Shown one piece after another: positions 1-14,453 of a stretch of 15,729 nt of DNA. The position numbers and the translations under genes are program-made. This DNA is from Myxococcota bacterium (GTDB lineage Bacteria; Myxococcota; JACRCW01). Each line of letters begins with the position of its first letter. Position 1 is the first letter of the stretch. The notes beneath the pieces were generated by a model, which ran no database searches, had not been told where the DNA came from, and worked only from the letters and a program-made list of their open reading frames with translations. Location: positions 1-15,729 of the forward strand of contig JBFMGU010000250.1 in the NCBI GenBank assembly GCA_040752415.1. Direction: 5' to 3'.

Positions 1-125
1 GGGGAAGGGGGGCAATCGGTGAACACGCAACGCTATTCCGACGAGAAGACGCCCCCCAGGCACAAATGCGTGCCCCCCTTCCCCGGCTCGGTGACGACGG
101 AAAATTGGTACTGGGGAAGGGGGGC
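1..125. repeat. Three copies of GGGGAAGGGGGGC in alternating orientation (+ 1-13, - 72-84, + 113-125)
   Basis: ggggaaggggggca at 1-14, its exact reverse complement tgccccccttcccc at 71-84, and ggggaaggggggc at 113-125, all read directly from the sequence. Confidence 0.75.
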
Positions 126-388
126 GAACGAGCAGGACGGCTTGAACGGGGGGGGTTAGGTGTTCGCCGGCCACAACGAAATGGGCAGAATGCACACACA
201 GCCCCTCGAAGCGGTGAAGTCGGAACTCGGGCTTGGTGCGTTTCCAGGTGCAGCCTCGGCTGCCGCAATGGCCCCGCAGCGTCACGACGCCACGAATCCC
301 TGTGCTCCCGCCACCCCTTCGGCTTGGCACCACCACCCGTCCAACGCGGCATTGACAGGCCCGGCGTGACCATGTTGCCTGCGCGCCC

Positions 389-889
389 ATGAAGACGTGG
401 CAGCAGAGTCAGGAACACTACGAGACGTGGGTACGCGACGACGGCATCCCCACCGCCTTCGAGGAGGAGCTGGAGGACGGCACGGTGCAGCGCGTGCAGA
501 TGCTCAACTTCGGCACGGATGACGACGTGCAGGTGGTAGCGCGCAACGTCAGCAGGCCAGCACTGTTCGGTTTCGCCCACTGCGTGGGTCGCAACGTGGC
601 CAACGCGTTCTTCGAGGGTGAGCTCGCCGGGTGGCGCGGGGAGCTGGGCATCAGCGTGCAGCTCTTTCCCGAGAAGGACCCGGAGTTCGACCTGCACGTG
701 CGCGCCGCACCCAACCTGCCCCGCCACCATGCCGAGGAGGAGAAGCTCTTCCTCATGCTCCGGACGCGCCTGCGTGTGCTGGAGTCCCTCAAGACCGCCG
801 GGGATCCCGTCACCGTCCACTTCATCTTCGCCATCAATGGGGGGCCCGGTCACGTCGGAGACCCGCACGGGCACGACCTCCCGCACTGA
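389..889 (+). CDS. Hypothetical protein (166 aa, acidic N-terminus, His-rich C-terminal tail)
   Basis: ATG 389 to TGA 887-889. Strongly G/C-ending codons typical of real genes here and a protein-like composition, unlike the overlapping ORFs. No recognisable family motif and no clear SD sequence. Confidence 0.75.
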   Translation: MKTWQQSQEHYETWVRDDGIPTAFEEELEDGTVQRVQMLNFGTDDDVQVVARNVSRPALFGFAHCVGRNVANAFFEGELAGWRGELGISVQLFPEKDPEFDLHVRAAPNLPRHHAEEEKLFLMLRTRLRVLESLKTAGDPVTVHFIFAINGGPGHVGDPHGHDLPH

Positions 890-899
890 CAACCTGGTC

Positions 900-929
900 T
901 TGACCTTGGCCGGTGGTGCGCTCAACCAT
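900..929 (+). promoter_or_regulatory. Possible sigma70-type promoter for the peptidase gene
   Basis: TTGACC (900-905), 18 nt spacer, AACCAT (924-929), lying 31 nt upstream of the ATG at 961. The -10 match is weak. Confidence 0.25.
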
Positions 930-960
930 CCGCGCACTTCAACCCCTGCCGAGGAAGACC

Positions 961-2901
<1,941 letters not shown>

Positions 2902-3140
2902 CCCCCCACGACGGGTGCGCTTATCGGCTCCGCATCCCACATGTTGCCACACCGCGTGGAGACGCGGCGTATTGCGTTTCTCTCGTCGGGAAGTGGTGGG
3001 GTTGGCGCCCCCAGCCCGTGAGGTTGCGGGCCCCCAGCGCGCCTAAACGCCAGGGGATCTCCGCAGTTGCAACGTCGCGGTTTTGCGGCGTTTTCCCTCG
3101 AGGCCAGGTATCCTCCGCCTGGGTTGCCCGCCCGTGCCAG

Positions 3141-3157
3141 CTGGCGCGCAACTTGAA
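3141..3157 (+). promoter_or_regulatory. Candidate sigma54 (-24/-12) promoter upstream of the cytochrome pair
   Basis: CTGGCGCG-CAAC-TTGAA versus consensus YTGGCACG-N4-TTGCW, with correct spacing and two mismatches, 46 nt before ATG 3204. Palindromic candidate activator sites lie upstream at 3066-3090. Confidence 0.5.
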
Positions 3158-3203
3158 GTGCCGGGTCACGCTGGGGCCGCGCGACCCGCGGTCGGAGGTC
3201 GTC

Positions 3204-6200
3204 ATGCGCAGTCACGTCCGGATCCTCGGAATGGTCCTGGCTTTTGCAGCCAGCACCAGTCTCATTGCCTGCACCACCGAGAAGGAGTGCGAGGACGGCA
3301 GCCTCCCGGACGAGAACGGCGATTGCTACGGCGAGGCCACCAGCTCCAGCTCAAGCAGCGGTGACGTGATCAGCTCCAGCACGTCGGAGGAAGCCTCCTC
3401 GTCCAGCTCGTCGTCGTCGGGCAGCTCCAGCAGCTCGTCGTCGTCATCTTCGTCGTCGACTTCCTCGGCATCCAGCTCCTCGTCGTCGGGCTCGTCGAGC
3501 AGCTCGTCCTCCAGCTCGTCCTCCTCCAGCTCCTCGTCGACCGGCGGGCTCGGCAACTGCTTCAACAACCGCTACGCCGTCTACCAGGGCGATCCCATTG
3601 ACTGCGACGTGACCAACACCGCCGTGTGGGGTTCCTGCGACGAGACCGGCACGCGCGTGGGCGGCGACCCGAACCAGCAGGCCGCGTGCGTCCTCTTCTG
3701 CTTCATCGAGGCGGGCGAGTGCGCCAACACGCCGCTCACGCCGGAAAACAGCAACTGCATGCAGTGCCACAACGGCGCCGGCGAGAATGACCCGCCCTAT
3801 TCCGGCGGCGGTCTCGAGGACGCCCATCCCTGGCGCACCGCGGGCGGCAGCACCGTGAAGTGCACCACCTGCCACGGCGGCGACCCCGACAGCGGCATGT
3901 ACAAGGACCGCGCGCACATCTGTCCTCCGCCGGACATCGAGCAGATTCGCGACAACGGCGACCCGCGTTGGGAAGGCGTCATCCTGGACCAGTACGGACC
4001 GCGCGCGTGGAGCCGCTATCTGCACAAAGCGGGTCTGGACAAGAGCCAGTCCGACGGAATCCTGGGCGTCCCCGACACCTGGCTGTGCCTGGGCCCCGAC
4101 GGAACGCCCAACCGCACCGTCACGAAGATGGAGTACCTGCAGTTCCTGGCGCCAGGGGACCTGCGTGTCGTCGAGACGGGCAAGAGCTGCGGTCAGTGTC
4201 ACGTCAACCAGTCCAAGGCCGTGCCGCGCAGCGTGATCGGCACCAGCATCGGCCTGGTGTCCACGGCGCGCTTCGTGTTCGGCATTCCCAACGCCATCCA
4301 GGGCTCCAACCCGTGGCAGCCCGACTACGCCGTCCGCAACATCACCGCGCTGCAGAATCCGCAGGGCCCCGCCACCATGGACTTCACGCAGGCCGGCCAG
4401 GCCAACCAGCTCCTGGAGCCCACCTTCGTGCAGGACTTCGAGAGCAACACGAATGTGCAGACGGTGACGTCGGTGCAGATGGCAACCGGCGTGGAGAGCA
4501 ACGCGGACCTGGACCAGCAGGCCTTCATCTCCTACGGCTACAACCGCGTCCGCGACACCAACAGCGATCTCGCCAAGGCCATCACCGTGGCGTTCGTGAA
4601 GCAGTGCGGTGATTGCCACGCCGGCGACAGCGGTCAGAACAACACCACCGGCGACTACCGCGGCGCGGGCTGCGCTTCGTGTCACATGGAGTACGGGTTT
4701 GAAGGTCGCTACCGGGGCCTGGACCCCAACCTGAACCGCGGTGAGCCCACCAACCCCGACTTCATCTACCCCGGCGAGCGTCCCCACGTGCGTGAACACG
4801 TCCTGCGTGCGCGTTTCCGTCGGGTGGTGCGGGAGAACCAGCCGGAGCAGCTCATCTTCGGCATGAACAGTGCGCGCGCCTGCATCGGGTGCCACCAGGG
4901 CTCCAACCGCACCGTGCTGCAGTACCTGGGCATCCGACTGGACCAGAACCAGGACGTGCTGAACAACCGCCAGTACCCCGGCAATCCCGTCGTGGCGAGG
5001 TTCGCCAACGAGTTCCAGGGTCGTGACGGCGTGGAGCTGTACAACATTGCCTACGGGCCCAACGTCAATGACCGCACCACGCTGCTGAACAACCGCGCCG
5101 CCACGCAGTACGTCCTCTACGAAGACTATGGTTGGCGAAACATCTTCTATGACCCGAACTTCGGCGGCACACCCAACGCCAGTGACTTCGGGCAGCGCGC
5201 GGCCACCAACCGTGACGACACACCCGCCGACATCCACTACGAGCGCGGCCTGGAGTGTTACGACTGCCACACCTCGACGGAGATGCACGGCACCGGCCGC
5301 ATCTACGCGCGCGGCAACCACTCGCTCGCCGTCACGTGTGAGAGCTGCCACGGCAACGCGGATGGCTACGCCGACCTCAGCGCCGGTGGATTCGCCATGG
5401 ACCGCTTCGGCAATGAGCTGAAGCACGTCTACAAGGACCAGACCGGCCGCTACTACCTGATGGGCAAGCGCGACGGGCTCCCCCACTTCATCCCGCAGGT
5501 AAAGGACCTGGTGAACAGCAACAGCCAGGTCACCAACCCGCGCAACAACCAGCCCATCTACAGCGCCAACGCGGACTTCGCGATGGGCCGCATGGACTTC
5601 GACCCCACCAATGGCGACGGGCCGCTGCAGAACGTGACGCAGATCGACCAGGCGCTGCGCAACCGCGGCTTCAGCCACCTGGGCACGTCGGATAACGCGG
5701 GCGGGCTGGCCTGCTACACGTGTCACACGTCGTGGCAGAACCAGTGCGTGGGCTGTCACCTGGACCTGCAGGCGCGTGCCAACGTGGACGCCTACACACA
5801 GATCAGCGCCGACTACGCCAACAACAACACCGGCGGCATCCCGAACGTGGGCTTCCCCTGGGCCAATGACATCAACCAGAACTTCGTCAACAACGTGAAC
5901 GGCGAATACGTCTTCAGCACCATCAACGCCAACTTCACGTACATTGACATCAGCACCTTCTACGTCGGCGTCGGGAACCGGGGACGCATCGTCCCGTTCT
6001 CCGCGCAGCACAACTGGTTCAACTACATCGACAACAACGGCGAGCGCCTCCAGGACGTGATGACGCTGCTGGGCGTGCAACAGGCGGCCACCAACGCCAA
6101 CTACACCTACGGTGCGGTGGCCGGCGCCAAGGGCCTGTTCTCCGACCGATTCGGCAATGGTTCGTCGGCGGGGAACCGGCAGCGCATGACCAGCGCGGGC

Positions 6201-6815
6201 GGGTATCACCAGATGATGCCGCACAGTCAGCGTGGTCGGCCCACGGGTCAGGCCTGGGGCGGATACGGAACGGCGTGCTTCCACTGCCACCTGACGGAAG
6301 GCACGGTGAACAACACCAGCGCCGTCGACCTGGTGCGCACCACCACGGGCCTGGGCGCGCTCACGTACAAGAAGTTCGCCGCGGACCGCTTCGGTTGTCC
6401 CATGAACTTCATCAATTGCGCGGCGAACAACACCGTGAACCAGCCCGCGGGCATTGCCGACTGCACCAACGGCACCGCGCTGGACAACCAGGCCCGCCTG
6501 TTCTTCTTCGACGGCAATGCCAACCTCTGCCCGCCCTCCACCGCCAACAACAACCCGGCCGACGTGTTCGCGGACTACGACCAGTTCGTCACCGCCAGCG
6601 GCGTCAGCAACGCGCGCAACAGCCAGAAGCGCGTGGAGTTCACGGGCATCTTCCCCGCGGGCTCGCTGGCTCCCGACGTGGCGGGCCCGCTGGGCATCCA
6701 GCACCTGCAGCTGCTCAACAACCTCAACAACAGCGGCATCGTCCTCACGCAGTGGATTGATTGGAACGGCGTGCGCTGCAACGTGAACACCTGTCCCAAC
6801 GGGTTCTTCCAGTAG
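3204..6815 (+). CDS. Large lipoprotein multiheme c-type cytochrome (1203 aa, 11 CxxCH), paralog 1
   Basis: GGAGG (3194-3198) precedes ATG 3204, so the ORF-track start at 3018 is too long. Lipoprotein signal MRSHVRILGMVLAFAASTSLIA|C (Cys23). Poly-Ser linker. Heme motifs CMQCH, CTTCH, CGQCH, CGDCH, CASCH, CIGCH, CYDCH, CESCH, CYTCH, CVGCH, CFHCH. Stop TAG 6813-6815. Confidence 0.92.
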   Translation: MRSHVRILGMVLAFAASTSLIACTTEKECEDGSLPDENGDCYGEATSSSSSSGDVISSSTSEEASSSSSSSSGSSSSSSSSSSSSTSSASSSSSSGSSSSSSSSSSSSSSSSTGGLGNCFNNRYAVYQGDPIDCDVTNTAVWGSCDETGTRVGGDPNQQAACVLFCFIEAGECANTPLTPENSNCMQCHNGAGENDPPYSGGGLEDAHPWRTAGGSTVKCTTCHGGDPDSGMYKDRAHICPPPDIEQIRDNGDPRWEGVILDQYGPRAWSRYLHKAGLDKSQSDGILGVPDTWLCLGPDGTPNRTVTKMEYLQFLAPGDLRVVETGKSCGQCHVNQSKAVPRSVIGTSIGLVSTARFVFGIPNAIQGSNPWQPDYAVRNITALQNPQGPATMDFTQAGQANQLLEPTFVQDFESNTNVQTVTSVQMATGVESNADLDQQAFISYGYNRVRDTNSDLAKAITVAFVKQCGDCHAGDSGQNNTTGDYRGAGCASCHMEYGFEGRYRGLDPNLNRGEPTNPDFIYPGERPHVREHVLRARFRRVVRENQPEQLIFGMNSARACIGCHQGSNRTVLQYLGIRLDQNQDVLNNRQYPGNPVVARFANEFQGRDGVELYNIAYGPNVNDRTTLLNNRAATQYVLYEDYGWRNIFYDPNFGGTPNASDFGQRAATNRDDTPADIHYERGLECYDCHTSTEMHGTGRIYARGNHSLAVTCESCHGNADGYADLSAGGFAMDRFGNELKHVYKDQTGRYYLMGKRDGLPHFIPQVKDLVNSNSQVTNPRNNQPIYSANADFAMGRMDFDPTNGDGPLQNVTQIDQALRNRGFSHLGTSDNAGGLACYTCHTSWQNQCVGCHLDLQARANVDAYTQISADYANNNTGGIPNVGFPWANDINQNFVNNVNGEYVFSTINANFTYIDISTFYVGVGNRGRIVPFSAQHNWFNYIDNNGERLQDVMTLLGVQQAATNANYTYGAVAGAKGLFSDRFGNGSSAGNRQRMTSAGGYHQMMPHSQRGRPTGQAWGGYGTACFHCHLTEGTVNNTSAVDLVRTTTGLGALTYKKFAADRFGCPMNFINCAANNTVNQPAGIADCTNGTALDNQARLFFFDGNANLCPPSTANNNPADVFADYDQFVTASGVSNARNSQKRVEFTGIFPAGSLAPDVAGPLGIQHLQLLNNLNNSGIVLTQWIDWNGVRCNVNTCPNGFFQ
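3342..3539 (+). repeat. Poly-serine low-complexity linker (~66 codons) in cytochrome paralog 1
   Basis: Run of mixed tcg/tcc/agc/tca/tct codons encoding SSSSSSGDVISSSTSEEASSSS...SSSS between the lipid anchor and the folded region. Confidence 0.9.
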
Positions 6816-6836
6816 CGTTTCGCGCTCGGAGGTCGC

Positions 6837-9800
6837 ATGCGCCGGTGCTCGGCTGCGCTGCTGATGGCGTTGATGACCGCGTGCACGCAGGACCCCGGAG
6901 TGGCGCCGTGCGTGGAAGGCGGGTGTGACGGCGTCGACGGAGGCAGTGCGAGCTCCGCGTCCAGTTCCTCCAGCGGGTCTTCTTCTTCTTCGTCCTCTTC
7001 GTCGTCGAGCTCCTCCGGCGCATCAAGCTCGGGTGGCTGCGAGAATGGGCTCTGTTGCCCGGAGGGCTGCGTTCCGAACTTCGACGCGACGGCGTGCCTC
7101 AATTCCATCACCGGAGGCGCATGCGGGGACGAATGCCCCAACACGTGTGAAACGGACTGCCCCCAACTGCCGGACTGTTCGTGCTGGTGTGACGACGGGT
7201 ACGGCTGCGACAACGGGCACGCCACCTACAATGGTCAGACGTACGACTGTCATAGCGAAGCGGTGTGGGGGGGCTGCTGCGGTGGGCCGTCCGGCGACGA
7301 GACCGGCCAGGTCGCCTGCATGCTCTTCTGCAACCTCGACAAGGTCGGCGCGGGACTTCCGCCCTGTGACTGTCCCAGTCCGTCCCCCAGCAACTGCATG
7401 CAGTGTCACAACGGAGCCGGTCCCAATGACCCGTCCTACAGCGGTGGTGGTCTGGAGGACCCGCACCCGTGGCGCACCGCCGGCGGCCAGGCGCTGGGTT
7501 GCACCAACTGTCACGGCGGCGACTCCACCAGCGGCATGTACAAGGACCGCGCACACGTCTGTCCCCCGCCGGACATCGCGCAGATTCGCGACAACGGCGA
7601 GCCCCGCTGGGAGGGCGTCATCCTCGACCAGTACGGTCCGCGCGCGTGGAGCCGCTACCTGCACAAGGCAGGGCTGGACAAGGGCCAGGTTGACGGCGTC
7701 ACGGGCGTTCCGGACCAGTGGAGCTGCCCGGGCCCCGACGGTCAGCCAACACGAACCGTGACGAATCTGGACTATCTCCAGTTTATCGCTCCCGGCGACC
7801 TGCGCGTGGTGGAGACCGGCAAGAGCTGCGGCCAGTGCCACGTCAACCAGAGCAAGAACCTGCCGCGCAGCGTGATTGGAACGGGCGGCGCCATCATTTC
7901 CAGTGCGCGTTTCTCCTTCGGTATTCCCAATGCCGTCGTCGGACGGAGCCCGTGGGGCGCCGATTACGCCTTTCGGGACATCACCTCACTCTCCAACCCC
8001 GGCTACGGCGCGGACTACCTCGAGGCGGGACAGGTGACGTCGCTGCAGGAGCCTGGCTTCACCGGTGATTACGAAAGCAACCTGAACGTCCAGACCGTCA
8101 CCTCCGTGCTCATGGCTGACGGCGTGGAAAGCAACCCGAACCTGGATCAGCAAGCCTGGATTTCCTACGGCACCAACCGCATCCGTGACGGACAGAGCGA
8201 CCTCGCCAAGGCCATCACCACGACGGTCATCAAGCAATGTGGCAACTGCCACGCGGGCAACAGCGGCACCAACGACAGTCCCGGTGACTTCCGCGGCGCA
8301 GGTTGCGCGGCATGTCACATGGAATACGGATTGGATGGCCGCTACCGCGGGTCGGATCCCAATCTCAACGTGGTGGAGCCGGCGGACCCCGACTTCCTCC
8401 AACCCGGCGAGCGACCACACGTGCGCCAGCACCTCATCCGCGGCCGTTACCGGGTAATTCCACGACAGGGCCAGCCAGACCTCACCGTGCTCGGCATGGA
8501 CAGCACGCGCGCCTGTCTTCCCTGTCACGCCGGCAGCAACCACACCACGCTGCAGTACCTGGGCATCCGGCCCGACCCGAATCAGGACGTCGTCAACAAT
8601 CGGCAGTATCCCGCCAATCCGTTGAACGCCTTGCACCTCGAGAGCTTCCTCGACCACGAGGGCAGGCCGCTCGTCGGAGCGCCGCTGGACGGTGGGGAGC
8701 CCACTTCGCTGCTCCATGGCCGCACCGCAACGCAATACGTTGTCTATGAAGACTATGGTTGGCGCAACATCTTCTATGACCCGACCTTCGGCGGCACACC
8801 CAACGCCAATGACCCAGGCGCCCGCACGCCCGCCAACCGCGACGACACACCTCCCGACATCCACTACGAACGCGGCCTGGAGTGCTACGACTGCCACACC
8901 GCGAGCGAGGTGCACGGGAATGGTCGGATCTACGCCCGAGGCGAGCACGCATTGTCGGTGACCTGTGAGAGCTGCCACGGGAACGCCGACCACTATGCGA
9001 CGCTAAGCGACAACGGCTTCGCCCTGGACCGCTTGGGCAATGAGCTGCGACACGTCTTCAAGGACCAGATGGGGCGCTACTATCTCGTCGGCAAACGCGA
9101 CGGCCAGGCGCACTTCCTGCCGCAGGTCAGGGACCTGGTGAATCCCGACAGCGCAGTCACCCGCCCCGGCAACAACCAGCCCCTGTATTCCGCCAACGCC
9201 GACTTCGCCATGGGACGCATCGACTTTGACCCCACCAACGGTGACGGACCCGTGCAGGGCATCGTCGTTGACGACCAGGTCCGACGCGCCCGCGGCTTCA
9301 GCCACCTGGGAACGCCGGACAACCAGGGAGGCATCGCATGTCATACGTGTCACACGTCGTGGCAGAACCAGTGCGTGGGTTGCCACCTGGACCTGCAGGC
9401 GCGCGCCAACGTGGACGCGTACACGCGCATCACCAGTGACTACGCCAACAACAACACCAACGGGGTTCCCAGCCTTGGCTTTCCCTGGAGCCGGGCCATC
9501 AGCAGTGACTTCATCAGCCCCATCAACGGCGAGTACGTGTTCCACTCCAGCCACGCGCATGCAACCTATGTGGACGTGACCACGTTCTCCATCGGCGTCG
9601 GGAGCCGGGGGCGGATTGTGCCGTTCACGTCGCAGCAGTCCTGGTTCAACAACTTGGACAGCAGTGGGGACCAGCTCCAGCACGTGATGACGTTGCTGGG
9701 AGTCCAGGAGGCGGAAACGGGCAGCGCTGCAACGTACGGCACGGTGACCGGCAAGGGCTTCTTCTCGGACCGCCTCGGGAGCGGTTCCTCGGCGGGCAAC

Positions 9801-10424
9801 CGGCAGCGCAAGGCCAGCGCGGGCGGCTACCACCAGAGCGTCCCGCATACCCAGCGTGGTCGCGCCACCGGGGTGAGCTGGGGCGGCTACGGCACCGCGT
9901 GCTTCCACTGTCACCTCACGGAAGCCACGAGCAACAACCCCAGTGCCGTGGACTTGGTGCGCACGACGACGGGACTGGGCGCATTGACCTATCGCAAGTT
10001 CGCGGCGGACCGCTTCGGGTGCCCCATGAACTTCACGAACTGCACGCCCAGCCCCAACGGCAACGCCAATTGCGCCGACGGCACACCCCTGGACAACCAC
10101 GCCCGCCCCTTCCGCTTCGACGGCAACACGAACCTCTGCCCACCGTCGTCCCAGAACGGCGCCGCCGCGGACATCTTCGCCGACTACGATCGCAAGGTGG
10201 AACCCGACGGCGTGAGCAACGCGAAGAACAGCCACCGGCGCGTGGACTTCAACGGCGTGGCCCGCACCGGCGCGCTCGACCCGGATGTCGCCGGCCCGCT
10301 GGGGTCGGAGCACCTTCAACTGCTGAACAATCTCAATGGCCAGGGCGTCGTGCTCACGCAGTGGCTCGACTGGAATGGCACGCGCTGCAACGTCGCCAGC
10401 TGCCCGGGCGGTTACGCCCCGTGA
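6837..10424 (+). CDS. Large lipoprotein multiheme c-type cytochrome (1195 aa, 11 CxxCH), paralog 2
   Basis: GGAGG at 6828-6832 before ATG 6837, 21 nt after the paralog 1 stop. Lipoprotein signal MRRCSAALLMALMTA|C (Cys16). Poly-Ser linker and Cys-rich insert. Heme motifs CMQCH, CTNCH, CGQCH, CGNCH, CAACH, CLPCH, CYDCH, CESCH, CHTCH, CVGCH, CFHCH, colinear with paralog 1. Confidence 0.92.
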   Translation: MRRCSAALLMALMTACTQDPGVAPCVEGGCDGVDGGSASSASSSSSGSSSSSSSSSSSSSGASSSGGCENGLCCPEGCVPNFDATACLNSITGGACGDECPNTCETDCPQLPDCSCWCDDGYGCDNGHATYNGQTYDCHSEAVWGGCCGGPSGDETGQVACMLFCNLDKVGAGLPPCDCPSPSPSNCMQCHNGAGPNDPSYSGGGLEDPHPWRTAGGQALGCTNCHGGDSTSGMYKDRAHVCPPPDIAQIRDNGEPRWEGVILDQYGPRAWSRYLHKAGLDKGQVDGVTGVPDQWSCPGPDGQPTRTVTNLDYLQFIAPGDLRVVETGKSCGQCHVNQSKNLPRSVIGTGGAIISSARFSFGIPNAVVGRSPWGADYAFRDITSLSNPGYGADYLEAGQVTSLQEPGFTGDYESNLNVQTVTSVLMADGVESNPNLDQQAWISYGTNRIRDGQSDLAKAITTTVIKQCGNCHAGNSGTNDSPGDFRGAGCAACHMEYGLDGRYRGSDPNLNVVEPADPDFLQPGERPHVRQHLIRGRYRVIPRQGQPDLTVLGMDSTRACLPCHAGSNHTTLQYLGIRPDPNQDVVNNRQYPANPLNALHLESFLDHEGRPLVGAPLDGGEPTSLLHGRTATQYVVYEDYGWRNIFYDPTFGGTPNANDPGARTPANRDDTPPDIHYERGLECYDCHTASEVHGNGRIYARGEHALSVTCESCHGNADHYATLSDNGFALDRLGNELRHVFKDQMGRYYLVGKRDGQAHFLPQVRDLVNPDSAVTRPGNNQPLYSANADFAMGRIDFDPTNGDGPVQGIVVDDQVRRARGFSHLGTPDNQGGIACHTCHTSWQNQCVGCHLDLQARANVDAYTRITSDYANNNTNGVPSLGFPWSRAISSDFISPINGEYVFHSSHAHATYVDVTTFSIGVGSRGRIVPFTSQQSWFNNLDSSGDQLQHVMTLLGVQEAETGSAATYGTVTGKGFFSDRLGSGSSAGNRQRKASAGGYHQSVPHTQRGRATGVSWGGYGTACFHCHLTEATSNNPSAVDLVRTTTGLGALTYRKFAADRFGCPMNFTNCTPSPNGNANCADGTPLDNHARPFRFDGNTNLCPPSSQNGAAADIFADYDRKVEPDGVSNAKNSHRRVDFNGVARTGALDPDVAGPLGSEHLQLLNNLNGQGVVLTQWLDWNGTRCNVASCPGGYAP
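6945..7031 (+). repeat. Poly-serine linker (~29 codons) in cytochrome paralog 2
   Basis: SASSASSSSSGSSSSSSSSSSSSSGASSS, including a (tct)4 run. Confidence 0.9.
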
Positions 10425-10562
10425 CGCACTGCTCGTGGGTCGCACGTCGCTGAGGCGTCGCTTCGGCACCCTGAAGCACTTGATGATCCAGCAGAGACCT
10501 GACACCGGGAGACTCCGTGACGTCGTTGCGTCGCGGAGTGTGGACTGGCCCCGTGACGCACT
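10416..10562. repeat. 15-bp direct repeat GCCCCGTGACGCACT (10416-10430 and 10548-10562) flanking an 11-bp hairpin (10512-10539)
   Basis: Both exact copies were read from the sequence, and the first includes the paralog 2 stop codon. Hairpin ACTCCGTGACG-tcgttg-CGTCGCGGAGT has one G-U pair. Confidence 0.55.
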
Positions 10563-10807
10563 CCCTGCGCCTGCCCCGGGCGGGCCGGTTCGCGGGCGAC
10601 AACCTCGTGGAGCGCGTTGTGCTCCGACGTCGGGTGGGGGTTTCGCGGGGTGTCACGCATTCCCGGTCGGACACAAGGGCGGGACCAGCCAGCCCGCCGG
10701 GGAAATATCCGTCGCGGGTGAGGGGCTTCCACAAGGCCGCGCGCCGCAAGCGCGCTCCCTCAAAGGGACGGAGGTGAGCTTCCCGTTGGCGGCACGGGGG
10801 AAGGAGC

Positions 10808-12652
10808 ATGAGCGTGGCTGCTGCGGAGTTCCTGTTGGCTCTGCTGGTGGCGGCAGTGGTTCCCGCACTCGCGGTCTGGTGGCGTTTGCGCAACCGGGAG
10901 GAGTCCGTGCGCCGCCTCGACGCGGCCCCCCCGTCGCGTGGAGAGCCCGCCGCCGTTTCGGCGCCAACGCCCGCGACCTCCGCGGGACGCCGCTCCGCCC
11001 CCCCGGACACGCCAACGCCGGGGGAACGGTCCCAGACCCGGCTGCAGCCCGTGTCCGAGCGTACCCCGACGCCGGGTCGCCTGCGCACCGGCATTCCCCA
11101 CGCTCCCATCACGCTGACCAACATCCCACGCCCCACCGCCCACCAATTCAGCCAGCCCTCGTTCCGTCCCGTGGTCGGCATTGACTTTGGCACCTCCAAC
11201 ACCTGCGCGGCCTGGGTCGACGCACAGGGCGCGTTGCGGGTCGTTCCCATCAACGGCACGGACTACGTGATGCCCACCGCCATCTGGTTCAGCGGGATGC
11301 AGAAGTTCGTGGTGGGGGCTGGTGCCCGGGAGCGGTTGCTGGACGACCCGGACAACGTCGTGCACGGCTTCAAGCGGTTCCTGGGTCGACGTTTTCGCTC
11401 GGACTTCGTTTCCCGCCACCGCGACCGCGTCAACTACAAGCTGGTGGAGGGCCGCGACGGGAAGGTGGCGGTGGAGGTGCATGGCACCGTCAAGCCGTTG
11501 CGTGAGCTCGCCTGTCACGTCATCCAGCGGGTGGCGGAGCTGGCCACGGCGAGCGCGGGTCGTCACGTCGAGGATTGCGTGCTCTCGGTGCCCGCGCACT
11601 TCGGGTACGAGCAGCGCCAGGAGGTCCGTGCCGCGGCGGAGATGGCGGGCCTGGAGGTGCGCGCCCTCATCAATGAACCCACCGCGGCGGCGCTGCGTTA
11701 CGCGCACCACCGTTCCATCCGGGGCAACGCGCTGGTCTACGACCTTGGCGGAGGCACCTTCGACGCGTCGCTGATCTGCGTGGAAGGTGGCGTGGTGCGC
11801 GTGCTGGCCACGGGTGGCGACGCCTTCCTGGGAGGCGCCGACTTCGACCAGAAGATCACCCACGCGGTCGCGTTTGACTTCGAGAGGCATCACGGTGTGG
11901 ACCTCACGACCCAGCGGGTGGTGCTGCAGCGCCTGAGGTTCGCCTGCGAGCTGGCCAAGATGACCCTGAGCACGCAGGAGGAGGTGTTGGTGCGTGTGCC
12001 TTTCGTGGGGATGAACCGGGGCCGGCCTCTGGACGTGGAATACCTCCTGACCCGCCGCGAGCTGGAGCTCATCATCGCGCCGCTGGTGGAACGCACCATG
12101 GGCACATGCGACGACCTGCTGCGCTGCGCGAACCTCACCTCCGACCTGGTGGGCGAGGTGATCCTGGTGGGCGGGCAGACGCGGACGCCCGCGGTGCGCC
12201 GCCGCGTCTTCAGCCGCTTCAACTTCGACCCCGCGCGCGCGCTGGACCCCGAGCTGGCGGTGTGCTCGGGCGCCGCGCTGCTGGGCCACTACCTGGAATG
12301 CGGGCGGAGCGTGCTGCAGGACGTGCTCTCCGTGCCGGTCTGGATGATGGTTCCGGGAGACGGGCCCCGGCAGGTCATTGCCGCCCAGACGCCGGTGCCG
12401 TGCTCACGACGGGTGACCGTGGACGTCACCACGCCCCTCGGAGCGCCGCAGACCGTGGTGTTCTTCGAGGCGCTGGAGCCCACCAGCCCGGACCGCACCA
12501 TCCTTGGCACGCTGCGGATGGACCCGGAGTGGTGTCGCGGCCCCGCCGGCACGGTGGACCTTGAGGTTCGCATGGCGCAGAACTTCTCCCTGGAGGTCCG
12601 CGTCCTCGGCGGGCAACAACCCGTGAAGCCGTTGACGCTGTGCGCGTCCTGA
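10808..12652 (+). CDS. Atypical Hsp70/DnaK-family protein with N-terminal transmembrane helix, Pro/Thr-rich linker and truncated substrate-binding domain
   Basis: SD AAGGAG at 10801-10806. Hydrophobic [18 protein letters not shown] followed by RLR. Hsp70 ATPase motifs [45 protein letters not shown] and LVGGQTRTP. The C-terminal part is short, with no evident helical lid. Not the housekeeping dnaK. Confidence 0.9.
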
Positions 12653-12793
12653 AGCGGGCGCACGTGGCAAACCCGCCGGCTCCTGACCTGCCCGGCCGGC
12701 CGCAACCGTCGGATCGACGGGGTGTCGTGCCTTCACGCCCGACGTTGGTGTCGTCGGGAAACAACCCCGAATGTGGTGCCCGTGCGCCGCGCC

Positions 12794-13357
12794 TCACCTG
12801 CGTCGTGAAACCTCGACACGTCCACCGGTCATGTAGAACACGCCCTTCGCCATGTGATGCAGCGTGCGGTCCTCGTCGCGCTCGAAGTGCCATTCACCGT
12901 TGCGGAACAACCGGTCCTCCGCCCACGCCGCGGTCACCTGCGCAATGAACAGGTCATACTGCTTCTCGTTGTGCGGCTCGCGGACCACCTTGCACTCCAG
13001 CCACGCGGCACAACCTTCCACCAGCGGCGCTTCCACCGTCGCGGCTGGCGCGGTGGCAATGCCGCGCGTGCTCAGCTTCTCCACGTCCCGCCCGCTCTCG
13101 CTTCCCACGGCGTACGTCAGATCCACCTGCGCCCGCGTGGGCACGTTCACCACGAAGGCGCCGGACGCGTCGACGAGGCCACGGGTGTGGGTATCCCCGG
13201 CAATCACCGCGCAGAGCTTGGGTGGGTCGAAGTCCAGCGCCATCACCCAGGCCGCGGCCATGATGTTCACCTTGCCCGCGTGCGCGCTGGTGATGAGCGT
13301 GGTGGGTCCGTGATTGATCAGCTTGTACGCCTTCCGCAGCTCCACCGGCACCCGCAT
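12794..13357 (-). CDS. Flavin reductase-like domain protein (FMN-binding split barrel)
   Basis: SD GGAGGAG directly upstream. Motifs LINHGPTTLITS, NIMAAAW, FVVNVP, GSESGRDVEK, APLVEGCAAWLECKV and YDLFIAQV, typical of DIM6/NTAB-type flavin reductase-like proteins. Confidence 0.88.
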   Translation of the reverse strand: MRVPVELRKAYKLINHGPTTLITSAHAGKVNIMAAAWVMALDFDPPKLCAVIAGDTHTRGLVDASGAFVVNVPTRAQVDLTYAVGSESGRDVEKLSTRGIATAPAATVEAPLVEGCAAWLECKVVREPHNEKQYDLFIAQVTAAWAEDRLFRNGEWHFERDEDRTLHHMAKGVFYMTGGRVEVSRRR

Positions 13358-13367
13358 GGTCTCCTCC

Positions 13368-14453
13368 TCAGCGGCACAGCGCCGCCACCCGTTCCGCCAG
13401 GTCCAACGACGCGGTCAGCCCGGGACTCTCGATTCCCACCAGGTTCACGAACCCCGGAAGGTCCTCACACAACACGAAGTCCTTTTCATCCGGCTCGTCC
13501 GGCGCGCGCAGCTTGGGGCGGATGCCGCACCCGTCGTAGCGCAACTGGTCCACGCGCAACGGCCCCAGCAGCTGCTGCGCCGCCGCGTGGAACGCCAGCA
13601 GCTTGTGCTCCGCCGACGAGAAATCATCCCGCCGCTCCACGTACTCCGCGTCCGGGCCCAACCGGTATCCCCCGCCGCGGTCCAACGCGAGATGCACGCC
13701 AAGCCCCGCGCTCCGCTTGTCCTTCACCGGGTAGATGAGGTGCCGGTACTCCACGGCCGTGCTTAGCCGGAAATAGTCTCCCCGGCAGGGATGCAGCTGA
13801 TACGCGGTGACACCCGCCAGGCACGCCACCCGGTCCGCGTCCAGCCCCGCGGCATTCACCACCCACCTCGTCGACACCCGGCCGCGCGCGCTGTCCACGC
13901 GCCACCCGTCCGGCCCGCGCTCCAACCCGTGCACCGCGGCGTGGCTCAGGATGGTGGCCCCGTGCTCCTCCGCCGCGATGGCCAGCGAGTGGGTCAGCTC
14001 GGTGGGATCCACCACACCCGTCTCGGCGCACATCATGGCCGCGGCCACCTGGAGCGAGGGTTCCAGCCTCGTCACCTCGTTCCCTGGCAGCAACGTACAA
14101 CCCGGCGCCCCCGACGCCACCACGTTCGCGTGCAGCTTCTCGAGCGCTTCACGTTGCCCCTCGTGCGTGGCCACCACCAGCTTCCCGGTCTTGCGGTGCC
14201 ACACGCCCTTGGCGGCGGCCCAGGCGTACAGCAGCACGTTCCCCCGGATGCAGCTCTGCGCCTTCAGCGAATTGGGCGCGTAGTAGAGGCCGCTGTGGAT
14301 GACGCCGCTGTTGCGGGAGGTGATGCCTTCACCCAGGCGCGGTCCCTTCTCCAGGAGCACCACGCTGCGACGGGCGCGGGACAACGCGTGGGCCACGGCG
14401 CACCCCACCACGCCACCACCGACCACGACGACGTCCACGCCATCCCACGTCAT
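13368..14453 (-). CDS. FAD-dependent oxidoreductase, L-2-hydroxyglutarate oxidase (LhgO)-like / DAO superfamily
   Basis: Rossmann VVVVGGGVVG...LLEK, plus TSRNSGVIHSG, GKLVVA, VVNAAGL, RGDYF, HLIYPV, GLGVH, GIRPKL and GIESPGLTASL. The start overlaps the upstream stop (ATGA at 14453-14450). Confidence 0.88.
   Translation of the reverse strand: MTWDGVDVVVVGGGVVGCAVAHALSRARRSVVLLEKGPRLGEGITSRNSGVIHSGLYYAPNSLKAQSCIRGNVLLYAWAAAKGVWHRKTGKLVVATHEGQREALEKLHANVVASGAPGCTLLPGNEVTRLEPSLQVAAAMMCAETGVVDPTELTHSLAIAAEEHGATILSHAAVHGLERGPDGWRVDSARGRVSTRWVVNAAGLDADRVACLAGVTAYQLHPCRGDYFRLSTAVEYRHLIYPVKDKRSAGLGVHLALDRGGGYRLGPDAEYVERRDDFSSAEHKLLAFHAAAQQLLGPLRVDQLRYDGCGIRPKLRAPDEPDEKDFVLCEDLPGFVNLVGIESPGLTASLDLAERVAALCR

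What the first reader, a model, noticed from the sequence alone, without database searches (positions are those of the whole stretch)
3204..10424. Tandem pair of giant lipid-anchored 11-heme cytochromes: candidate undescribed cell-surface redox / extracellular electron transfer system
Seen: two co-oriented genes 21 nt apart. Each encodes lipobox-Cys, poly-Ser tether, Cys-rich module, 11 colinear CxxCH motifs and a Cys-containing C-terminal domain (22 hemes in total). About 14 non-motif His are conserved in both (HPW, RAH, YLH, PHVRxH, DIH, xHG, FSHL, YHQ..PH and others), enough for bis-His ligation of all hemes. The +2 residue is Thr in both. Established: a non-Asp +2 residue usually routes lipoproteins to the outer membrane, and outer-surface multiheme lipoproteins (MtrC/OmcA, OmcB) mediate electron exchange with minerals or electrodes. 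Inference: the density of ~1 heme per 110 aa is low for a pure wire and suggests large catalytic or binding domains. No porin, quinol oxidase or heme-maturation genes are in the window, so partners must lie elsewhere. The core motif order (GDLRV..CxxCH; RGxGCAxCH..Y...GRYxGxDP; DIH..RG..CxDCHT; CESCHG; CxTCHxxW...CxGCH) recalls, from memory, ExtM-like deltaproteobacterial cytochromes, but I do not recognise this full architecture as a characterised protein.
Basis: partly seen in the sequence, partly recalled or inferred. Interest (0 to 1): 0.85.

Follow-up and report, generated by a model that had tools for sequence, protein, structure and literature searches.

The report
Tandem ExtM-like eleven-heme lipoprotein cytochromes
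Two neighbouring genes encode large lipid-anchored proteins with eleven heme-binding sites each; they belong to an unstudied long branch of the ExtM cytochrome family, which in other bacteria is encoded at the outer end of a gene cluster that looks built to carry electrons across the whole cell envelope.

Summary
Window 3204-6815 and 6837-10424 encode 1203- and 1195-aa paralogues, 67% identical. Each has a lipobox, a Ser-rich linker, a Cys-rich module and 11 colinear CxxCH motifs (shuffles give 0.03-0.08).

They are not orphans. Profile comparison shows full-core homology to ExtM-like 11-heme cytochromes (probability 100%, E 3e-104). They fail the ExtM equivalog model (80/74 bits, cut-off 800) and the MtrC domain model.

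They form a lineage-specific clade of five dispersed paralogues in an 11-Mb Myxococcota genome. That genome has system II cytochrome c maturation.

In 20 of the 31 closest metagenomic loci, the family gene is the last gene of a conserved cluster:
- a CcsBA-like protein and a DUF2959 lipoprotein;
- an FeS-flavin inner-membrane protein with a two-heme-b signature;
- a 23-heme cytochrome;
- an outer-membrane-barrel-like protein;
- a 7-heme lipoprotein.

In Myxococcota the family gene is unlinked, but it co-occurs with a related module: inner-membrane protein, 30-heme cytochrome and OMP-like protein.

Best reading, at confidence about 0.45: leashed, surface-displayed terminal electron-transfer modules of a PCC3-like conduit. 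Localisation, partners and substrate are inferred. No structure model could be made. I rate it a new variant of a known kind.

The parts
3194..3198 (+). GGAGG ribosome-binding site of gene A
   Evidence: Read from the sequence printed; it lies 5 nt before the ATG at 3204.
3204..6815 (+). Gene A: 1203-aa undecaheme lipoprotein cytochrome of the long-form ExtM-like family
   Evidence: CxxCH motifs at residues 185, 220, 329, 468, 490, 560, 685, 712, 837, 848 and 1025.
3204..3272 (+). Gene A signal peptide and lipobox (MRSHVRILGMVLAFAASTSLIA|C, Cys23)
   Evidence: Lipobox pattern match; +2 residue is Thr.
3393..3548 (+). Gene A Ser-rich linker (residues 64-115)
   Evidence: Mixed Ser codons with imperfect 12-69-nt repeats.
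3549..3755 (+). Gene A Cys-containing module before heme 1 (the Y.G..(I/Y)DC...WG.C...AC.LFC pattern shared with stand-alone relatives)
3756..6290 (+). Gene A 11-heme core (residues 185-1029), homologous to the ExtM-like core but carrying insertions
6291..6812 (+). Gene A C-terminal region after heme 11 (174 aa, 6 Cys)
   Evidence: conserved among the paralogues.
6828..6832 (+). GGAGG ribosome-binding site of gene B, inside the 21-nt spacer
   Evidence: No terminator-like site between A and B.
6837..10424 (+). Gene B: 1195-aa undecaheme lipoprotein cytochrome, paralogue of A (67% identity)
   Evidence: CxxCH motifs at residues 187, 222, 331, 468, 490, 560, 683, 710, 835, 846 and 1022.
6837..6884 (+). 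Gene B signal peptide and lipobox (MRRCSAALLMALMTA|C, Cys16)
   Evidence: +2 residue is Thr.
6939..7037 (+). Gene B Ser-rich linker (residues 35-67)
7038..7394 (+). Gene B Cys-rich module (22 Cys between the lipid Cys and heme 1)
7395..9914 (+). Gene B 11-heme core (residues 187-1026)
9915..10421 (+). Gene B C-terminal region after heme 11 (169 aa, 6 Cys)

Best explanation
A and B are two of five paralogous c-type cytochromes in this Myxococcota genome. Each is exported, lipid-anchored and carries eleven heme-binding sites. Their core is an ExtM-like heme wire. The most likely reading is that the lipoprotein pathway takes them to the outer membrane. There they would be held on a long Ser-rich leash and act as terminal electron-transfer modules of an envelope-spanning chain encoded elsewhere, on contig C39. 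That chain would comprise an inner-membrane protein with cytoplasmic 4Fe-4S clusters and a two-heme-b transmembrane domain, a 30-heme periplasmic cytochrome, and an outer-membrane-barrel-like protein. Electrons would pass from the cytoplasm through this chain to the undecahemes, and from them to extracellular or insoluble acceptors such as metal oxides or humic matter; the reverse direction is not excluded. Shown here: the sequence architecture, the homology, the gene context in relatives, and the co-occurrence. Inferred: heme attachment, outer-surface location, the C39 partnership, the direction of flow and the substrates.
For: 1. Cytochrome c nature. Each protein has 11 CxxCH against a shuffle mean of at most 0.08. 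All 11 motifs are invariant or nearly so in 40 family members. ResB and CcsA lie on C220.

2. Lipoprotein. Five of 5 paralogues and 42 of 69 other homologues match the lipobox pattern. At least 8 of the 27 misses are N-terminally truncated gene calls. None of the 5 paralogues has the +2 Lys that marks inner-membrane lipoproteins in M. xanthus.

3. Wire-type core. Homology to ExtM-like 11-heme proteins has probability 100, E 2.8e-104, over 601 columns. Nine conserved distal His plus 2 conserved Met are available for 11 hemes.

4. Context in the sister clade. Of the 31 strongest metagenomic loci (L034-L064), 20 have a 7-heme lipoprotein gene immediately upstream. Where the contig reaches further, the upstream genes are a barrel-like protein, a 23-heme cytochrome, a 744-aa Fer4 + Pyr_redox_3 membrane protein with two WxxxHx13H motifs, a DUF2959 lipoprotein and a CcsBA-like protein. 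The barrel-like protein has a signal peptide and a C-terminal Phe in 12 of 12 cases. Its period-2 hydrophobicity has z 3.2, against 0.1 for the cytochrome core. The linked genes form one clade with support 98/99. Two WX3HX13H motifs are the signature He et al. 2017 reported for the inner-membrane proteins of PCC3 and PCC4 (PMC5566968, sections 15-17).

5. This genome's C39 carries a TPR protein, a Fer4 membrane protein with the same two motifs, a 30-heme cytochrome and a secreted 793-aa protein.

6. Co-occurrence. In one sample of 401 Myxococcota genomes, the family (E<=1e-30) is in 7 and the C39 membrane protein (E<=1e-60) in 19. Six of the 7 family holders are among the 19, and the seventh (G082) has it at 1.4e-59. 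The 7 belong to 6 families. The adjacency of membrane protein and 30-heme cytochrome is kept in 4 of 4 genomes examined.

7. Surface-type add-ons. Stand-alone relatives carry N-terminal extensions (Ig-like Pfam domains, Cys-rich modules, Ser linkers) of 72-338 aa in 30 of 33 cases. The 30 proteins nearest the linked clade have only 23-56 aa before heme 1.

8. All five copies are intact, with dN/dS of 0.25-0.40.
Against: - No partner gene is adjacent to any of the five paralogues. The context evidence comes from a clade only about 32% identical.
- This genome has no detectable homologue of the linked clade's barrel-like protein (HMM, no hit at E<=10). The C39 793-aa protein is not detectably related to it (hhalign probability 4%).
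- The barrel nature of the C39 protein is weakly supported: period-2 z of 2.6-2.7; C-terminal Phe or Tyr in 2 of 3 orthologues but Met in this genome; the nearest named Atlas cluster is BBP2_2 with only a 20% share.
- Twelve of the 19 holders of the membrane protein lack the family at E<=1e-30, so that module works without it.
- How a lipoprotein would reach the outer face in this lineage is unknown.
- ExtM itself was found by proteomics in outer-membrane, cytoplasmic-membrane and periplasmic fractions (PMC5877670, passages), so the superfamily is not known to be extracellular.
- Heme density is low for a wire, at 92-109 aa per heme.
- There is no expression data and no structure model.
Confidence: 0.45

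Rival explanations
1. Periplasm-facing lipoproteins. The proteins would be anchored in the inner leaflet of the outer membrane or in the inner membrane. The Ser-rich leash would let the heme wire bridge or shuttle electrons within the periplasm, or reduce soluble oxyanions or sulfur species there, as is suspected for the Geobacter ext operon.
For: - ExtM was detected in periplasm and in both membranes (PMC5877670, passages).
- Its operon partner ExtKL (MccSep) is reported essential for elemental-sulfur respiration (bioRxiv 10.1101/2025.11.18.688581, abstract in the search listing; passages).
- No porin gene lies next to any paralogue.
- A leash of 33-52 Ser-rich residues could span periplasmic distances.
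- Most Lol-sorted lipoproteins face the periplasm (general knowledge).
Against: - In 20 of 31 close loci the family gene follows the barrel-like gene and a second lipoprotein cytochrome, the order seen for outer-surface cytochromes in porin-cytochrome clusters.
- Relatives carry Ig-like and Cys-rich N-terminal modules typical of surface proteins.
- The genome already has a 30-heme cytochrome suited to span the periplasm.
Confidence: 0.25
2. Catalytic multiheme enzymes. One or two hemes would lack a protein distal ligand or carry an unusual one, and the insertions would form an active-site pocket, as in NrfA, MccA or octaheme reductases.
For: - Only 9 non-motif His are conserved for 11 hemes across the family.
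- At 92-109 aa per heme, density is in the range of catalytic multiheme proteins (recalled).
- The only solved-structure hits are local matches to NrfA-type nitrite reductases (E 6.4e-4, 21 bits).
Against: - Two nearly invariant Met (M495 and M792, 93-95%) can supply the two missing ligands.
- There is no CxxCK, CX15CH or other catalytic heme motif.
- The NrfA matches cover one di-heme stretch of about 65 residues only.
- The core aligns end to end with ExtM-like proteins of about 55 aa per heme.
- Five divergent paralogues suit partner or substrate-surface variety more than one defined chemistry.
Confidence: 0.12
3. A and B work as an obligate heterodimer or polymerise into a filament. The tandem arrangement would then reflect a two-subunit structure.
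For: - Tandem pairs arose twice independently: in this genome, and in genome G034 (L030:10343-13648 and 13850-17044), where each pair falls within its own clade.
- The 21-nt spacing implies co-transcription.
Against: - Three further paralogues are single genes.
- Of the 22 other loci used for clustering, only G034 holds two copies.
- A is closer to the unlinked C60 and C209 copies (85% identity) than to B (70%).
- No complex prediction could be run.
Confidence: 0.08

Closest known systems
ExtM (GSU2935) of the Geobacter extHIJKLMNOPQS cluster, NCBIfam NF040943, and the wider ExtM-like group of about 600-760-aa proteins
   Same: The order of 11 heme motifs and the flanking motifs (NPGDLRV, RSSGCxACHM, DTPPDxH..CxDCH, CExCHG, CxxCH..W...CxGCH, PH...CxxCH) is the same. 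Profile-profile probability is 100, E 2.8e-104, over 601 columns. This genome also has a short ExtM-like protein on C334 (159.7 bits).
   Different: - A and B score 79.6 and 73.5 bits against a cut-off of 800.
- They have 11 hemes, not the 12 reported for ExtM (PMC5877670, passages).
- They are about 400-600 aa longer, through insertions, a C-terminal region and an N-terminal leash.
- They are lipoproteins.
- No ExtKL, ExtN, ExtO or ExtP genes are nearby.
- ExtM's own function is untested in the papers I read.
MtrC/OmcA/UndA outer-surface deca- and undecaheme lipoproteins (Pfam PF22113 domains II/IV)
   Same: Both are lipoprotein multiheme cytochromes. In the sister clade the family gene is encoded beside a barrel-like protein and a periplasmic cytochrome, which is the role I propose here.
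   Different: PF22113 gives 22.4 bits for A (cut-off 30) and nothing for B. A genuine MtrC-like protein in the same genome scores 168.8 bits. The heme spacing is different, and there is no two-pentaheme-domain layout.
PCC3 porin-cytochrome clusters (He et al. 2017, PMC5566968; Gallionellaceae survey PMC10734462)
   Same: The cluster logic in the linked clade and on C39 matches. There is an inner-membrane protein with two WX3HX13H motifs, a periplasmic cytochrome of 21-30 hemes, an outer-membrane barrel-like protein, and extracellular cytochrome(s).
   Different: - PCC3 extracellular cytochromes are described as repeat-rich, low-complexity and heme-dense, with a median of 34 hemes. This family is non-repetitive with 11 hemes.
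- The PCC3 inner-membrane protein is about 300 aa. Here it is fused to FeS domains, with or without an FAD/NAD(P) domain.
- Homology to the original PCC3 proteins was not tested, because no sequences were at hand.
UetJ, the extracellular undecaheme of the Tenderiales uet cluster (bioRxiv 10.1101/2022.05.06.490989)
   Same: Both have eleven CxxCH, no other recognised domain and a predicted extracellular location. In Gallionellaceae, candidate UetJ proteins have 11-12 hemes and are annotated as cytochrome c3 family or doubled-CXXCH proteins (PMC10734462, Table 1 passage).
   Different: Relatedness is untested, as I had no UetJ sequence. None of the 26 longer loci among L065-L113 shows a uet-like run of tetra- and triheme genes. 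The window has no uet-type neighbours.

Membership tests
ExtM equivalog (NCBIfam NF040943) | Whole-protein score at or above the curated cut-off of 800 bits | tested here: not met
   A scores 79.6 bits and B 73.5 bits.
ExtM equivalog (NCBIfam NF040943) | Location in an ext-type operon with ExtKL, ExtN, ExtO and ExtP | tested here: not met
   The window neighbours are a peptidase, an Hsp70-like protein, a flavin reductase, an FAD oxidase and an aminotransferase.
ExtM-like superfamily (my grouping: proteins homologous to the ExtM core) | End-to-end homology of the colinear 11-heme core | tested here: met
   hhalign of A1 against A2 gives probability 100, E 2.8e-104, over 601 columns. All 21 proteins in A2 hit NF040943 at 118-276 bits.
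MtrC/OmcA/MtrF family | Pfam PF22113 (domains II/IV) at or above the 30-bit cut-off | tested here: not met
   A scores 22.4 bits and B has no hit. The positive comparison in the same genome scores 168.8 bits.
Multiheme c-type cytochrome | Multiple CxxCH motifs conserved in relatives, an export signal, and a maturation system in the genome | tested here: met
   for the motifs; ResB and CcsA on C220. Covalent heme attachment itself cannot be tested with these tools.
Bacterial lipoprotein (Sec/SPII) | Lipobox with an invariant Cys after a hydrophobic signal peptide | tested here: met
   The pattern matches in 5 of 5 paralogues and 42 of 69 homologues. The pattern was recalled from PROSITE PS51257, and no SignalP or LipoP run was possible.
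PCC3-like porin-cytochrome conduit | The gene lies in a cluster with a porin, a periplasmic cytochrome of about 21 or more hemes, and an inner-membrane protein | tested here: not met
   This is not so for any of the five paralogues. It is met in 20 of 31 close metagenomic loci.
PCC3-like porin-cytochrome conduit | Inner-membrane protein with two WX3HX13H motifs in transmembrane helices, present in the genome | tested here: met
   The C39 666-aa protein has motifs at 475 and 645; L053 and L039 proteins have them likewise. The signature is as described in PMC5566968 section 17.
PCC3-like porin-cytochrome conduit | Outer-membrane beta-barrel partner | tested here: inconclusive
   Linked clade: signal peptide and C-terminal Phe in 12 of 12, period-2 z 3.2. 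C39 793-aa protein: z 2.6-2.7, and a C-terminal aromatic residue in 2 of 3 orthologues but not in this genome. No fold could be predicted.
PCC3-like porin-cytochrome conduit | Sequence homology to the original PCC3 proteins of Sideroxydans or Leptothrix | not tested
UetJ | Sequence homology to Tenderia UetJ and a uet cluster context | not tested
   No UetJ sequence was at hand. No uet-like gene pattern appeared in 26 loci.

The most novel reading that the evidence does not exclude
The family would be the outermost module of an undescribed electron-export machine that resembles NADPH oxidases and bypasses the quinone pool. The proposed path is: cytoplasmic NAD(P)H or ferredoxin, then a flavin/FeS domain, then two b hemes across the inner membrane, then a single 23-30-heme cytochrome spanning the periplasm, then an outer-membrane barrel, then surface ExtM-like undecahemes. 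In this myxobacterium the terminal module would have been detached from the operon, multiplied to five variants and hung on Ser-rich leashes of 33-52 residues. One conduit would thus feed several free-swinging reductases with different targets. Those targets could be minerals or humics, or possibly extracellular oxygen reduction during predation.
Probability: 0.2. Interest if true: 0.8.

Novelty: new variant of a known kind. Interest (0 to 1): 0.55.

Why it matters
Extracellular electron transfer is well understood only for the Mtr and Geobacter systems. PCC3-type clusters and ExtM remain predictions without biochemistry.

This finding links the two. It suggests that ExtM-like undecahemes are the outer terminus of PCC3-like conduits, and that some of those conduits have an inner-membrane entry point built like an NAD(P)H- or ferredoxin-driven transmembrane reductase.

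It also extends such machinery to large-genome Myxococcota and, judging by the names of relatives, to Planctomycetota and Proteobacteria MAGs.

If true, three things follow:
- It gives a testable role for a widespread 'hypothetical' family: 45 cluster representatives at E<=1e-30 and 564 metagenomic relatives.
- It gives a handle on metal and humic redox cycling by organisms not counted as electroactive.
- It offers a natural example of modular, leashed redox termini.

Tried and rejected
- Structure prediction, and hence fold search, heme-chain geometry and ligand assignment, could not be obtained. The tool accepted no jobs, and the one accepted job failed.
There is no verdict. An A-B complex exceeds the size limit.
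- Sequencing runs: none was listed for 3204-10424, so there is no expression data.
- Solved structures: the single sequence gave a best E of 0.24. The profile gave only a local NrfA match.
- ESM Atlas: only ExtM-like and c3/c7-type clusters, all at 0.89 or below, and no structure search.
- Earlier findings of this scan: nothing by place or by sequence.
- Promoter and terminator scan: no promoter-like site and nothing of note.
- The upstream regions of the four paralogue loci share no motif.
- Rfam: no match in the window.
- MtrB/PioB porin (PF11854): no hit in the genome.
- The genome-contig scan gave only 5 loci, which was too few for context.
- The ABC-transporter genes shared downstream of L042, L043 and L044 were judged incidental.
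- I considered and dropped the idea that the C39 793-aa protein is an orthologue of the linked clade's barrel-like protein.
- Literature. Searches found no description of this family. Terms used were: ExtM/cytochrome/selenite; undecaheme/lipoprotein/Myxococcota; UetJ; multiheme cytochrome/Myxococcota/EET; PCC3; GSU2935; Planctomycetota/porin-cytochrome. Supplementary tables of PMC5566968 and PMC10734462, which list PCC3 genes, were not read and may bear on whether the linked cluster has already been catalogued.

Full report
**Observation.** The window holds two co-oriented ORFs, 3204-6815 (A, 1203 aa) and 6837-10424 (B, 1195 aa). They are separated by 21 nt, and each is preceded by GGAGG. Each has exactly 11 CxxCH motifs at matching positions and no variant heme motif. 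Five thousand shuffles of each protein give means of 0.03 and 0.08 motifs and never more than 2. A and B are 67% identical over 1084 residues.

Both begin with a lipobox-type signal peptide, with the Cys at position 23 in A and 16 in B and Thr at +2. A Ser-rich run follows (A 64-115, B 35-67), then a Cys-containing module (8 Cys in A, 22 in B), then the heme region, and finally about 170 residues with 6 Cys. Fifteen non-motif His are shared by A and B. The neighbouring genes are an S9 peptidase, an Hsp70-like protein, a flavin reductase, an FAD oxidase and an aminotransferase. None is a porin, a quinol oxidase or a maturation gene.

**What family.** Pfam sees only a short c7/c3-type stretch around residues 676-720. 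The MtrC/MtrF domain model stays below its cut-off (22.4 bits against 30). NCBIfam's ExtM model matches at 79.6 and 73.5 bits against a cut-off of 800, so the proteins are not ExtM.

The resemblance is nevertheless real homology. I aligned 40 family members (A1) and 21 ExtM-like proteins of about 600-760 aa (A2). All 21 score 118-276 bits on the ExtM model. Profile-profile comparison of A1 and A2 gives probability 100, E 2.8e-104, over 601 columns, running from heme 1 to the last heme. The window proteins are thus a long form of the ExtM-like 11-heme core, with insertions, a C-terminal region and an N-terminal extension.

ExtM (GSU2935) is described as a 12-heme, 68-kDa cytochrome of unknown function, found by proteomics in outer-membrane, cytoplasmic-membrane and periplasmic fractions (PMC5877670, passages). 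A 2025 preprint ties its operon neighbour ExtKL (MccSep) to elemental-sulfur respiration but does not address ExtM (listing; passages). No solved structure is related by sequence.

**Distribution.** A word-indexed search of 5.8 billion proteins returned 71 hits. The best outside hit is 34% identical. The named hits are all 'hypothetical protein' from Myxococcales, Gammaproteobacteria, Planctomycetota and Alphaproteobacteria MAGs. The exhaustive search of cluster representatives found 747 at E<=1e-3, 249 at E<=1e-10 and 45 at E<=1e-30. A metagenome scan found 564 relatives.

The window's genome is 11.0 Mb in 520 contigs. It is a member of the Myxococcota: 28 MYXO-CTERM matches lie over the cut-off, against none in 14 control genomes. 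It carries five full-length paralogues (two on C169, plus C60, C209 and C495) and two distant ExtM-like genes on C90 and C334.

In trees the five paralogues form one long-branched clade with 100/100 support. A is closest to C60 and C209, at 85% identity. All five are intact, with dN/dS of 0.25-0.40. All five have a lipobox, a Ser/Gly/Thr-rich linker and a Cys-rich module. Within a sample of 401 genomes of the phylum, only 7 have the family at E<=1e-30. One of these, G034, has an independently arisen tandem pair.

**Ligands.** Across the 40-member alignment all 11 heme motifs are conserved. Only nine non-motif His are at least 90% conserved: H210, H240, H528, H532, H676, H693, H759, H823 and H1004 in B numbering. 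Two Met are also nearly invariant: M495, directly after heme 5's CxxCH, and M792. Nine bis-His hemes and two His/Met hemes is the simplest reading. An open-site heme cannot be excluded without a structure.

**Context in relatives.** None of the five paralogues has a conserved neighbour, but the sister clade does. Among the 31 metagenomic loci with the strongest matches (L034-L064):
- 20 have a 7-heme lipoprotein gene immediately upstream;
- 6 have at least 3.3 kb of upstream sequence without it;
- 5 are cut too short to tell.

Where the contigs reach far enough, the gene order is:
1. a CcsBA-like protein (PF01578);
2. a DUF2959 lipoprotein;
3. a 744-aa protein with an N-terminal transmembrane helix, a 4Fe-4S domain, a Pyr_redox_3 flavin/NAD(P) domain and a C-terminal membrane domain;
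4. a 23-heme cytochrome;
5. a protein of about 560 aa with no known family;
6. the 7-heme lipoprotein;
7. the family gene.

The unknown 560-aa protein has a signal peptide and ends in ...[Q/T][R/K][S/R]F in 12 of 12 resolved cases. Its period-2 hydrophobicity stands at z 3.2 against shuffles, compared with 0.1 for the cytochrome core. I read it as an outer-membrane barrel, but this is inferred.

The membrane domain of the 744-aa protein carries two WxxxHx13H motifs. That is the signature He et al. (2017) reported for the inner-membrane proteins of their predicted PCC3 and PCC4 porin-cytochrome clusters and interpreted as two b-heme sites (PMC5566968, sections 15-17).

The linked genes form one clade with 98/99 support. 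Database relatives nearest that clade have only 23-56 residues before heme 1 (30 of 30). Of the 33 relatives nearest the stand-alone clades, 30 have 72-338 residues there, including Ig-like domains. One stand-alone-type locus, L038, also lies within 6 kb of a 27-heme cytochrome and a transmembrane Fer4-flavin protein that lacks the b-heme motifs.

**Candidate partner in this genome.** Contig C39 encodes, in one direction, four proteins: a TPR protein; a 666-aa protein with two 4Fe-4S motifs and two WxxxHx13H motifs; a 30-heme cytochrome; and a secreted 793-aa protein of no known family.

In the same 401-genome sample, the 666-aa protein occurs in 19 genomes at E<=1e-60. Six of the seven family holders are among them, and the seventh has it at 1.4e-59. 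The seven belong to six taxonomic families. The membrane protein sits next to a 30-heme cytochrome in all four other holders examined, always on a different contig from the family gene.

This link has clear limits:
- The 793-aa protein shows no detectable relationship to the linked clade's barrel-like protein, and its barrel nature is only weakly indicated.
- Twelve holders of the membrane protein lack the family.
- Related genomes are not independent samples.

The genome also has ResB/CcsA maturation genes, 40 ORFs with three or more CxxCH, and a genuine MtrC-like decaheme lipoprotein. It has no MtrB/PioB-type porin.

**Mechanism.** I commit to the following reading, at confidence about 0.45.
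1. A and B are exported by Sec, lipidated at Cys23 and Cys16, loaded with 11 hemes by system II, and sorted away from the inner membrane. None has the +2 Lys that marks inner-membrane lipoproteins in M. xanthus (PMC3222651).
2. They are displayed at the outer membrane on a flexible Ser-rich leash.
3. There they act as terminal electron-transfer modules for the C39 chain, which runs from FeS clusters through two b hemes and the 30-heme cytochrome to a barrel-like protein.
4. They exchange electrons with extracellular or insoluble partners.

The cytoplasmic FeS domains, joined in relatives by a flavin/NAD(P) domain, argue for outward flow from cytoplasmic reductant. Localisation, partnership, direction and substrate are all inferred.

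The rivals are a periplasm-facing role (0.25), a catalytic enzyme (0.12) and an obligate A-B complex or polymer (0.08).

**Comparison and novelty.** The proteins work most like MtrC/OmcA or the extracellular cytochromes of PCC3, but they are members of neither. By descent they belong to the ExtM-like superfamily without being ExtM. Whether Tenderiales UetJ belongs to the same superfamily is untested.

I found no paper describing this long-form family or the linked cluster. Supplementary gene tables of the PCC3 papers were not read.

I rate the finding a new variant of a known kind, with interest 0.55. It is still informative, because it connects ExtM-like cytochromes to PCC3-like conduits and extends them to Myxococcota.

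**Not obtained.** There is no structure model, no complex prediction and no expression data.

Noticed in passing
G000 contig C39:7092-16831 (locus L114), minus strand: A conserved module of a TPR protein, a 666-aa Fer4 membrane protein with two WxxxHx13H motifs, a 30-heme cytochrome and a secreted 793-aa protein of unknown family. The adjacency of the membrane protein and a cytochrome with exactly 30 CxxCH is kept in four other Myxococcota genomes.
   Followed up: yes
G000 contig C157:32961-39743 (locus L029): A second cytochrome cluster. It holds a genuine MtrC/MtrF-like 10-heme lipoprotein (PF22113, 168.8 bits) with collagen-type repeats at residues 36-84 as an N-terminal spacer. It also holds a mono-heme cytochrome c, an 11-heme lipoprotein with a Geobacter-type CxxxxCH motif, and a 13-heme ORF.
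   Followed up: partly
Locus L030 (G034:C7), 10343-13648 and 13850-17044: An independent tandem duplication of the same family in another Myxococcota genome. Each copy has 11 CxxCH, and the flanking genes are housekeeping genes.
   Followed up: partly
Loci L053, L039, L048, L057-L059 (metagenome contigs), about 1-12700: A seven-gene cluster ending in the family gene. The HMM of the 7-heme lipoprotein scores 274.7 bits on this genome's 30-heme cytochrome, so the giant cytochromes appear to be built of 7-heme-like units.
   Followed up: partly
Locus L039:14205-16337: A multicopper oxidase gene (Cu-oxidase_3 and Cu-oxidase_2 domains) lies just downstream of the linked cluster. It was seen only in this locus.
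   Followed up: no
window 10808-12652 (+): An Hsp70/DnaK-like protein. It has an extra N-terminal stretch of about 120 residues that starts with a hydrophobic segment, and it scores well below the DnaK and HscA cut-offs. This is an atypical, possibly membrane-anchored Hsp70.
   Followed up: no
window 389-889 (+): A 166-aa ORF with gene-like codon bias (GC3 0.89) and no Pfam or NCBIfam match.
   Followed up: no
G000 contig C334:57406-63566 (locus L028): A short ExtM-like 11-heme protein (730 aa, 159.7 bits on NF040943) lies a few kb from an RnfC-like gene and further heme-motif ORFs.
   Followed up: partly
Loci L066-L109 (metagenome contigs): Many more distant relatives (23-25% identity) are 10-heme proteins of about 700-1470 aa. 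Several of them are flanked by another 10-heme gene and a 4-heme gene (for example L091, L093, L105, L107, L109), and a homologue of the FeS-flavin membrane protein lies about 9 kb upstream.
   Followed up: no
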